64,000 nt of DNA. Source: Octopus vulgaris. Its lineage: Eukaryota. Position 1 is the first letter of the stretch. Every line of letters begins with the position of its first letter. The notes beneath the pieces were generated by a model that saw only the letters and a list, made by a program, of their open reading frames with translations, did no database searches and was not told the origin of the DNA. Below are positions 11,212 through 12,159 of the stretch, piece by piece. The translations under genes were made by a program, and so were the position numbers. Location of the stretch: NCBI GenBank assembly GCA_951406725.2, contig OX597814.1, positions 85,746,001 through 85,810,000 of the forward strand, in the 5' to 3' direction.

Positions 11212-11268
<57 letters not shown>

Positions 11269-11482
11269 CAATAATAATTCTCTAAAAGAGATATAGACAG
11301 TAACTGCTCGATAACATAAGGGACTAAAGCCATCTGAATATGGCTAGGGACAGGGCAGGGTGGTGGGGGTGTTACTGTTGCATTTAGCCCCAGGCGAACA
11401 TCGACGTCACCAGAAAGGCTAGACACCGTCACGGTGTCCTTATCCTGCAAAGGGAGGTAATTCCCCGATGAAGCGGAAACCA

Positions 11483-11528
11483 CACACGGACCATGGTTTC
11501 AAGGTGTATTGCCTATCGTCGGCGTGTG
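11483..11528 (-). ncRNA. Type I hammerhead ribozyme motif (variant core), minus-strand copy
   Basis: Reverse complement of 11891-11936. Confidence 0.7.
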
Positions 11529-11890
11529 GTAGGCTTCCGCTTCCTCGACGAATTCTCACTCTGCAGGATATTCATATATAGATTTTCAAGCAAAATACAT
11601 TTGCTGATTTCGAAAATCTGTTCGAAAGCAATAATAATTCTCTAAAAGAGATATAGACAGTAACTGCTCGATAACATAAGGGACTAAAGCCATCTGAATA
11701 TGGCTAGGGACAGGGCAGGTTGGTGGGGGTGTTACTGTTGCATTTAGCCCCAGGCGAACATCGACGTCACCAGAAAGAGAATTATTATTGCTTTCGAACA
11801 GATTTTCGAAATCAGCAAATGTATTTTGCTTGAAAATCTATATATGAATATCCTGCAGAGTGAGAATTCGTCGAGGAAGCGGAAGCCTAC

Positions 11891-11936
11891 CACACGCCGA
11901 CGATAGGCAATACACCTTGAAACCATGGTCCGTGTG
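11891..11936 (+). ncRNA. Type I hammerhead ribozyme motif (variant core CCGACGA)
   Basis: cacacg CCGACGA T AGG caataca CCT T GAAA CCATGG TC cgtgtg: stem I cacacg/cgtgtg, palindromic stem III ACCATGGT, GUC site. Confidence 0.7.
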
Positions 11937-12159
11937 TGGTTTCCGCTTCATCGGGGAATTACCTCCCTTTGCAGGATAAGGACACCGTGACGGTGTCTAG
12001 CCTTTCTGGTGATGACGTCGATGTTCGCCTGGGGCTAAATGCAACAGTAACACCCCCACCACCCTGCCCTGTCCCTAGCCATATTCAGATGGCTTTAGTC
12101 CCTTATGTTATATATATATATATATATATATATGTATACACACACACATATATATACCA

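What the first reader, a model, noticed from the sequence alone, without database searches (positions are those of the whole stretch)
11268..12111. 360-nt highly base-paired, viroid-like monomer with a variant hammerhead (U4C core, U-U at the base of stem II)
Seen: 1.4 tandem copies plus an inverted copy in (TA)n. Stem I extends into a ~45-bp imperfect rod (tatcctgca..gaagcggaa..accacacg / cgtgtg.tggt.ttccgcttc..tgcaggata). Further hairpins include gacacc-gtgac-ggtgtc, ttcgaa..ttcgaa, agcaaa..tttgct and agccat..atggct. Both HHR copies read CCGACGA rather than CUGAnGA. Inferred: a non-LTR retrozyme with either a natural core variant or a mutation already present in the template RNA. The U-U at 10.1/11.1 recurs at 57368.
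Basis: partly seen in the sequence, partly recalled or inferred. Interest (0 to 1): 0.8.

Follow-up and report, generated by a model that had tools for sequence, protein, structure and literature searches.

The report
Variant-hammerhead retrozyme, Penelope-type insertion
A 360-base non-coding repeat, found in many near-identical copies in public data, carries a hammerhead-like motif in which a normally fixed core letter is changed across the family; its insertion pattern suggests it was likely copied into the genome by Penelope-like jumping genes, and whether it still cuts itself is untested.

Summary
Observation confirmed. Window 11268-12111 is one young insertion in a (TA)n tract: a 360-nt unit, 150 nt of a second copy, and a 334-nt inverted copy, with a 43-nt extension at one end only. 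That is the published insertion signature of Penelope-like elements (PLEs). The unit has no ORF and carries a type I hammerhead motif: core CCGACGA (U4C), U-U at 10.1/11.1, 6-bp stem I inside a ~42-bp rod, and an 8-nt palindrome that favours a double hammerhead by ~10 kcal/mol. The variant is family-wide, not private. Each deviation is known separately (U4C in a viroid; U-U in an axolotl retrozyme); I found no report of both fixed in a high-copy animal family. Cleavage and a circRNA are untested; a weak or dead ribozyme riding on PLE machinery remains a real rival. 'Viroid-like' overstates it. New variant of a known kind; interest 0.45.

The parts
11153..11267 (.). Left (TA)n microsatellite flank (insertion target)
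   Evidence: sequence
11268..11627 (-). Complete 360-nt unit, 46% GC, no meaningful ORF; sense (hammerhead) strand is minus; 3' terminus A at 11268
11268..11310 (-). 43-nt 'tail' present only at the left end; the right end stops at the position equivalent to 11311
   Evidence: tail described in PMC8557442 and PMC11167929
11441..11570 (-). Hammerhead domain: long imperfect rod extending stem I through a UAC/U internal loop
11483..11528 (-). Type I hammerhead motif: C3-A9 = 11522-11516 (C4 = 11521, N7 = 11518), U10.1 = 11515, U11.1 = 11501, GAAA = 11500-11497, palindrome ACCAUGGU = 11497-11490, predicted cleavage 3' of C17 (11489) after GUC
   Evidence: family-wide C4 and U-U
11628..11777 (-). 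Partial second tandem copy (150 nt; T at 11720 where 99.95% of family depth in run X1 has G)
11776..11777 (.). 2-nt (AG) microhomology at the inversion junction
11778..12111 (+). Inverted 5'-truncated copy (334 nt including a 3-nt duplication), 3' terminus B at 12111
11891..11936 (+). Second copy of the hammerhead motif (core 11897-11903), identical to the first
12109..12156 (.). Right (TA)n flank

Best explanation
This is one young insertion of a 360-nt non-coding repeat family whose type I hammerhead motif carries U4C and a U-U at the base of stem II across the family, and which was likely copied into the (TA)n tract by the reverse transcriptase/endonuclease of a Penelope-like element. Proposed cycle: tandem copies are transcribed on the hammerhead strand (inferred). 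Neighbouring ribozymes pair through the ACCAUGGU palindrome and would cleave slowly after GUC as double hammerheads, giving 360-nt monomers that a host ligase could close (predicted; the monomer circle is predicted to park stem I in a slipped, inactive register). A PLE protein would nick AT-rich DNA and start reverse transcription at two internal sites 43 nt apart, once from each strand, giving the two arms and the one-sided tail (inferred from the ends). Both cDNAs cross the cleavage site intact (shown), so the template was a ligated circle or an uncleaved multimer. My odds by step: family-wide C4 0.9; PLE mobilisation 0.9; measurable dimer cleavage 0.6; an in vivo circRNA 0.45.
For: Layout matches the PLE signature described in PMC8557442 (partial tandem, adjacent inverted 5'-truncated copy, 30-40-bp one-sided tail, (TA)n bias; passages). 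The tail corresponds to two internal RT start sites in vitro (PMC11167929). Here the tail is 43 nt and the inversion junction has a 2-nt microhomology; run X20 has further contigs starting at terminus A beside TA. A PLE-type GIY-YIG remnant lies at 14768-15906, and a second hammerhead element with the same layout at 46616-47894. The unit closes on itself: the 360-nt return joint is seen in 4 of 4 runs, and the inverted arm also crosses 11627/11628. Family-wide variant: of 360 positions only 6 are listed as variable at 3% or more, none at conserved core positions; N7 is listed (A in 59% of X1 depth), which shows that a change in that neighbourhood is detectable. Majority alleles widen the preference for the hammerhead strand (-65.7 vs -54.8 kcal/mol). 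The double hammerhead is 10.3 kcal/mol better than two single ones, and with majority alleles the dimer MFE already pairs 8 of 8 palindrome bases. Precedents for activity: U4C lowers activity in vitro but allows viroid infectivity, and U10.1-U11.1 is the best-tolerated mismatch (PMC3088659); axolotl HHR_Amex2 has the U-U, cleaves better as a dimer and occurs as circRNA (PMC7229834).
Against: No activity or expression data. The family is young (1,088 of 1,429 X1 contigs are at least 95% alike), so a uniform C4 shows descent from one master copy, not selection for function; no CUGA-bearing relative was found for comparison. Two weakening changes in one core may add up. PLE insertion in vitro does not need ribozyme cleavage (PMC11167929), and 8 of 9 Xenopus retrozyme dimers gave no cleavage (bioRxiv 10.64898/2026.07.22.740005). 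Even the double hammerhead stays 4.8-7.3 kcal/mol above the MFE; helices II and III have probabilities of 0.05 and 0.00 in the monomer circle. This locus has only one ribozyme per arm. The partner PLE is not identified: the nearby remnant shares no sequence with the unit. Runs X6, X14 and X20 hold the element at depth 8-21 only and may be traces of organism A's DNA, so conservation across species is not shown.
Confidence: 0.65

Rival explanations
1. Same PLE-mobilised 360-nt family, but the ribozyme is effectively dead. U4C plus U-U were fixed by a burst from one master copy, and the template is an uncleaved tandem transcript, not a circle.
For: Ribozyme-dead PLE RNA inserts normally in vitro (PMC11167929). 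Naiad PLEs reach very high copy numbers without canonical hammerheads (PMC8557442). The family is homogeneous. Both arms carry the cleavage site intact. The active fold is disfavoured.
Against: All other core bases, the GUC triplet, 6-bp stem I with internal loop and a perfect palindrome are intact. Listed subfamily variation falls at N7 and outside the core. Each deviation alone is compatible with activity.
Confidence: 0.24
2. The unit is only the 5'-truncated pseudo-LTR tail of an autonomous PLE, and the tandem arose at this locus by template jumping.
For: The layout is that of truncated PLE insertions; other windows of this scan with hammerhead inserts were read that way (unchecked notes).
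Against: The 11627/11628 junction is also present in the independent inverted arm. Single contigs of 359-390 nt close a 360-nt cycle in X6, X14 and X20, and the return joint is in X1. There is no ORF in the unit. No dominant loose end leading into an ORF among the 12 shown of 83.
Confidence: 0.07
3. A satellite amplified at DNA level, or an assembly artefact, with a fossil hammerhead.
For: Tandem closure is seen in DNA-like runs. Inverted duplications can be assembly errors.
Against: The arms differ by a 3-nt duplication and end at different termini 43 nt apart, both in TA. Other elements in the window have the same layout.
Confidence: 0.03
4. An endogenised viroid-like RNA with ribozymes in both polarities; the opposite strand has CCGATGA-AGCG-GAAA at 11465 followed by a 7-bp stem III and GUA.
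For: The motif is in the sequence, with a possible 2+5-bp stem I.
Against: No stem II. The fold costs 21-24 kcal/mol over the MFE, and majority alleles favour the other strand. No match in viral or metagenome contigs.
Confidence: 0.01

Closest known systems
Metazoan non-LTR retrozymes (Cervera and de la Pena 2020, PMC7229834), especially mussel 350-390-nt repeats and axolotl Rtz_353/HHR_Amex2
   Same: Unit size within 150-450 nt, GC under 50%, no ORF, type I hammerhead, self-paired predicted circle; 2-bp stem III with tetraloop and U-U at the base of stem II as in HHR_Amex2; dimer-favoured cleavage predicted.
   Different: U4C core across the family; stem I runs into a ~42-bp rod; this copy is a 1.4-mer plus inverted arm with a PLE tail rather than a plain array; expression and cleavage not shown.
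Penelope-like element insertions (Craig et al. 2021, PMC8557442; Frangieh et al. 2024, PMC11167929) and the proposal that animal retrozymes are non-autonomous PLEs (bioRxiv 10.64898/2026.07.22.740005)
   Same: Partial tandem, adjacent inverted 5'-truncated copy, one-sided tail, (TA)n target, hammerhead upstream of the 3' termini.
   Different: No RT/GIY-YIG ORF; the unit closes at 360 nt; tail 43 nt rather than 30-40; the hammerhead has a full stem I with internal loop rather than the minimal PLE form. The bioRxiv paper argues from co-occurrence and pLTR phylogeny (31 vertebrates, 3 insects, 1 coral), not from insertion ends.
Natural U4C hammerhead variant of a viroid (cited in Perreault et al. 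2011, PMC3088659; the primary paper, probably Ambros and Flores 1998, was not held)
   Same: Same core change, CCGA for CUGA.
   Different: There a sequence variant of a viroid (peach latent mosaic viroid, from recall); here the fixed state of a high-copy animal genomic family, combined with U10.1-U11.1.

Membership tests
Canonical type I hammerhead ribozyme | Core C3 U4 G5 A6 N7 G8 A9 / G12 A13 A14 / U16.1 H17 | tested here: not met
   All met except U4, which is C in both copies and across the family. Filed as a variant that works like a hammerhead, not as a canonical member.
Canonical type I hammerhead ribozyme | Three helices around the core, stem I open | tested here: met
   6-bp I, 3-bp II, 2-bp III (8 bp as dimer); 0 of 5,000 shuffles give the motif.
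Canonical type I hammerhead ribozyme | Base pair 10.1-11.1 (usually G-C) | tested here: not met
   U-U; a documented natural variant.
Canonical type I hammerhead ribozyme | Tertiary contact between the stem I internal loop and loop II | tested here: inconclusive
   UAC/U internal loop after 6 bp and a 7-nt loop II ending in CA resemble the Schistosoma-type arrangement, but that consensus is recalled; no 3D test.
Canonical type I hammerhead ribozyme | Match to an Rfam hammerhead model | tested here: not met
   No hammerhead hit at gathering or E up to 10. The canonical-core copies at 47554/46870 were also missed at gathering, so the test is insensitive here.
Canonical type I hammerhead ribozyme | Site-specific self-cleavage | not testable with these tools
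   Needs an in vitro assay.
Non-LTR retrozyme | Short (about 150-450 nt) head-to-tail unit bearing a type I hammerhead motif | tested here: met
   360-nt unit; return joint in 4 of 4 runs; motif is a core variant.
Non-LTR retrozyme | Non-coding, GC below 50%, no LTR | tested here: met
   46% GC; stops in all 6 circular frames; no tRNA gene.
Non-LTR retrozyme | Multicopy in the host genome | tested here: met
   1,429 contigs laid and summed depth 1.6e5-1.2e6 per bin in run X1. Not a copy number; many copies inferred. Only this insertion lies in the window.
Non-LTR retrozyme | Stable self-paired predicted circle | tested here: met
   z -7.0 overall, -2.0 outside the rod.
Non-LTR retrozyme | [quoted passage not shown] | tested here: inconclusive
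   Not at this locus (one ribozyme per arm, opposite strands). Closed 360-nt contigs suggest arrays elsewhere, but no assembly was held.
Non-LTR retrozyme | Expressed as linear and circular monomer RNA | not testable with these tools
   Only contigs were available; they cannot show strand, ends or circularity.
Autonomous Penelope-like element | ORF with RT and GIY-YIG endonuclease | tested here: not met
   No such ORF in the element.
Autonomous Penelope-like element | Insertion signature: partial tandem, inverted 5'-truncated copy, one-sided tail, microsatellite target | tested here: met
   against PMC8557442.
Hammerhead viroids / viroid-like RNAs | Ribozymes in both polarities and no DNA form | tested here: not met
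   DNA-encoded repeat; the antisense core-like motif lacks stem II and costs 21-24 kcal/mol.

The most novel reading that the evidence does not exclude
A high-copy animal retrozyme family that runs on a doubly attenuated hammerhead (U4C plus U10.1-U11.1). It cleaves only as a dimer or with protein help, accumulates as a cleavage-resistant 360-nt circle, and is copied round the circle by a PLE reverse transcriptase from two internal start sites. That would be the first genomic family with a fixed U4C core, and insertion-level proof that PLEs mobilise retrozyme circles.
Probability: 0.3. Interest if true: 0.62.

Novelty: new variant of a known kind. Interest (0 to 1): 0.45.

Why it matters
First, which machinery mobilises animal retrozymes is still argued from co-occurrence and phylogeny (PMC7229834, PMC7761336, bioRxiv 10.64898/2026.07.22.740005). 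Here a closed 360-nt non-coding unit bears the PLE-specific ends, and its two termini give exact predicted RT start sites to test with a purified PLE protein. Second, U4 is treated as invariant and CUGAnGA-based searches and Rfam miss this family, so genomic hammerhead counts may be low. Third, it offers a natural test of whether ribozyme activity matters to these elements: a family that spread widely with a weakened core either tolerates slow cleavage or does not need it. The limits: every component has a precedent, and no activity is shown.

Tried and rejected
No host genome was held, so loci could not be counted. Rfam gave no hammerhead hit; weak miRNA-hairpin hits are below gathering score and reflect the rod. 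Pattern scans found 0 loci: metagenome contigs twice, viral contigs once. Sequencing-run search: no RNA holder listed on record; several rows are only guessed to be RNA, and I use none as evidence on expression. The closed 390-nt contig in X6 (guessed RNA) is not circRNA evidence, because X1, X14 and X20 show the same joint. I laid 4 of the 20 runs that hold the stretch. Table 3 omits 3-4 differences per contig in X6, X14 and X20; for X14 they fall in 11418-11457 by subtraction, and I infer the same edge effect for the others. Antisense second ribozyme at 11465: rejected on fold energy and missing stem II. Tail as a significant hairpin: folds, but z 0.36, rejected. U4C as a folding switch: no change in MFE or active-fold energy in the monomer, 0.3 kcal/mol at most in the dimer. 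Endless ORF on the 360-nt circle: stops in all 6 frames. Pol III boxes and tRNA origin: only three 1-mismatch box hits, not in A-then-B order on one strand, and no tRNA. Partner PLE: the 14768 remnant gave no Pfam hit and no homolog among longer proteins, only Atlas feature hits including a cluster with 11% GIY-YIG, a weak endonuclease II hit (E 0.7) and a CxxC...CxH tail; no similarity to the unit. Host taxon: a search with a nearby retroelement ORF gave named hits only at about 50% identity in marine invertebrates. My octopus guess rests on recalled repeat content and is untested. Earlier scan notes held nothing on this sequence or genome. Not-in-print searches; none showed a genomic family with fixed U4C. 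The supplement of PMC7229834 could not be read and bioRxiv supplements are closed; they may list this family. Lunse et al. 2017 on PLE hammerhead variants was seen only as a title and may include U4C forms.

Full report
1. What is there. The window is AT-rich (35.6% GC), microsatellite-laden animal DNA. No assembly was held. Between two (TA)n tracts (11153-11267 and 12109-12156) lies an 844-nt insertion made only of one 360-nt unit: a full copy (11268-11627), 150 nt of a second head-to-tail copy (11628-11777, one mismatch at 11720) and an inverted copy (11778-12111, identical apart from a 3-nt duplication). There is no other copy in the window. The unit is 46% GC, has stops in all six circular frames and no tRNA gene.

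2. The ribozyme motif. On the minus strand of the left arm and the plus strand of the right arm the sequence reads: 6-bp stem I strand, CCGACGA, U-AGG-CAAUACA-CCU-U, GAAA, CCAUGG, UC, stem I strand. This is type I topology with a GUC cleavage triplet (cut predicted 3' of 11489). The descriptor, with any base allowed at position 4, hit 0 of 5,000 shuffles of the unit and only 4 places in the window: these two and a canonical-core pair at 47554/46870. Stem I continues through a UAC/U internal loop into a rod of 42 pairs (z -9.0). The circle folds at -121.4 kcal/mol (z -7.0), but outside the rod z is only -2.0. ACCAUGGU is a perfect palindrome (duplex -11.2 kcal/mol). In a tandem dimer the double hammerhead is 10.3 kcal/mol better than two single ones, though still 4.8-7.3 above the MFE. 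In the monomer circle stem I prefers a slipped register and stems II and III are barely populated (probabilities 0.24-0.28, 0.05, 0.00). Rfam does not detect the motif.

3. Is U4C private or family-wide? Twenty public runs hold the stretch. I laid four of them (X1, X6, X14, X20; organism labels A-D) on the permuted monomer 11418-11777 at 80% likeness and a 3% listing threshold. X1 gave 1,429 contigs (540, 548, 266 and 75 at 99+, 95-99, 90-95 and under 90% alike) with summed depth of 1.6e5-1.2e6 per bin, which I read as a high-copy young family; the tool warns that it is no copy number. Six positions are listed: 11518 (N7; U in 59% of X1 depth), 11535 (91%), 11570 (63%), 11574 (65%), 11720 (99.95%) and 11721 (20%). 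No row appears at C4 (11521), U10.1, U11.1 or any conserved core base in any run, and N7 serves as a positive control for detection three bases away. The family core is therefore CCGA(U/C)GA with the U-U. The window copy belongs to a minor subfamily; the X6 contig shows no listed difference from it at the four subfamily sites. Because the family is young, a uniform C4 proves that the master copy had it, not that it is selected.

4. How it got there. Read on the sense strand, both arms point outward into TA. The left arm ends at 11268; the right arm ends at the position equivalent to 11311, leaving a 43-nt one-sided tail, and the arms meet at a 2-nt microhomology. Partial tandem, adjacent inverted 5'-truncated copy, a 30-40-bp one-sided tail and (TA)n bias are the described marks of PLE insertions (PMC8557442, passages). 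In vitro, the tail lies between two internal RT start sites and the endonuclease prefers AT-rich DNA (PMC11167929, parts 1-2 of 4). The arms are 510 and 334 nt long, while the termini lie only 221 and 178 nt downstream of the cleavage site. Both cDNAs therefore crossed that site, so the template was a ligated circle or an uncleaved multimer, not a cleaved linear monomer; these two cannot be told apart here. The unit is a closed 360-mer rather than a truncated PLE tail: the 11627/11628 junction is in both arms, and the 360-nt return joint is in 4 of 4 runs. PLE machinery exists in this genome at least as a remnant: a frameshifted GIY-YIG-like ORF end with a CxxC...CxH tail at 14768-15906 (the motif assignment is recalled). 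It shares no sequence with the unit and is not shown to be the partner.

5. Mechanism committed to. A non-autonomous, PLE-mobilised retrozyme whose ribozyme is attenuated and would cleave mainly as a dimer in tandem transcripts. Shown: layout, motif, family-wide variant, closed unit. Predicted: dimer preference and inactive monomer fold. Inferred: PLE-driven insertion. Untested: transcription, cleavage, circularisation. Main rival: a dead ribozyme carried along, since PLE insertion in vitro does not need cleavage and 8 of 9 Xenopus retrozyme dimers did not cleave.

6. Comparison with what is known. Non-LTR retrozymes of 150-450 bp with type I hammerheads give circRNAs in coral, mussel and axolotl; axolotl HHR_Amex2 has a 2-bp stem III, a U-U at the base of stem II and cleaves better as a dimer (PMC7229834, parts 2-4 of 6; supplement unreadable). 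U4C is a known natural viroid variant with reduced in vitro activity that still supports infectivity, and U10.1-U11.1 is the best-tolerated mismatch (PMC3088659, passages and section 8). The primary U4C paper was not held; I saw only its title. PLE hammerheads, their dimers and a fixed U3-A8 family in Schistosoma are described in PMC4209133 (parts 1-2 of 4). A 2026 preprint derives animal retrozymes from PLE pLTRs by co-occurrence and phylogeny (parts 1-3 of 5). A squid genome paper counts 235 Rfam hammerhead-1 loci without analysis (PMC6962438, passage). I saw passages only of PMC6155905, PMC3907566, PMC7761336 and PMC8490949. Seven searches showed no genomic family with a fixed U4C core and no octopus retrozyme; unseen supplements and Lunse et al. 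2017 (title only) could hold either. It works like a non-LTR retrozyme and meets that family's sequence-level criteria; the ribozyme fails the canonical core test and is filed as an untested variant. It is not a viroid-like RNA and not an autonomous PLE.

7. The 57368 motif. It belongs to a second, unrelated family (562-nt unit, canonical CUGA core, same tandem/inverted layout at 46616-47894; about 80% diverged copy at 57114-57634). The sister copy has A-U at the base of stem II, so that U-U says nothing about this element.

8. Verdict. Observation confirmed; interpretation partly supported and sharpened. New variant of a known kind. Interest 0.45: a specialist would find the fixed double variant and the PLE-type ends on a closed retrozyme unit useful and directly testable, but each piece has a precedent and no activity is shown.

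Noticed in passing
window 46616-47894 and 57114-57634: Second hammerhead family with canonical CUGA core, long loop II and palindromic stem III. At 46616 it forms a 1.2-kb inverted pair plus about 1.1 copies of a 562-nt unit (34% GC, circular z -5.9) in (TA)n, with a one-sided tail of about 90 nt; the 57114 copy is about 80% alike and truncated. A candidate second PLE-mobilised non-autonomous unit.
   Followed up: partly
window 14768-15906 (+): Frameshifted remnant of a PLE-type endonuclease end (GIY-YIG-like VYQC...VYIGAT, then a CxxC...CxH tail in another frame); no RT part upstream and no hammerhead found nearby.
   Followed up: partly
window 11465-11540 (+), mirrored at 11954 (-): Hammerhead-core-like CCGATGA-AGCG-GAAA on the strand opposite the ribozyme, inside the rod, with a 7-bp stem III ending in GUA but no stem II. 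It shares the CCGA start; possibly a relic of an old inversion that built the rod, possibly chance.
   Followed up: partly
window 24802-26192, 27037-28434, 39776-40064, 41174-41478, 58830-59659: Further large inverted-repeat elements; 24802-26192 is a 950-nt palindrome with an 85-nt outer pair. A relaxed scan found no hammerhead core in them.
   Followed up: partly
window 11120-11152 and 14630-14661: Short GC hairpin followed by CTAG then TA, directly left of the (TA)n that holds the element and again upstream of the PLE remnant; resembles Helitron 3' ends (recalled, not tested).
   Followed up: no
run X20 and X1 contigs on window 11722-11775: Several contigs match only about 45 nt of the unit and run on into other sequence on both sides, suggesting related or chimeric repeat families that share this segment; X1 also shows variant letters around 11418-11421.
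   Followed up: no
window 3720-4183, 29979-30148, 36190-36441, 39103-39246, 46279-46504, 51191-51556: Abundant 150-170-nt SINE-like repeat, locally tandem (period 149). It resembles an octopus repeat from recall, which is the only basis for my host guess.
   Followed up: no
window 18424-19329 (-), 43520-44143 (+), 60328-60909 (+), 62042-62818 (+): Fragments of other non-LTR retroelements (zf-RVT, RVT_1, zf-CCHC hits below curated cut-offs).
   Followed up: partly
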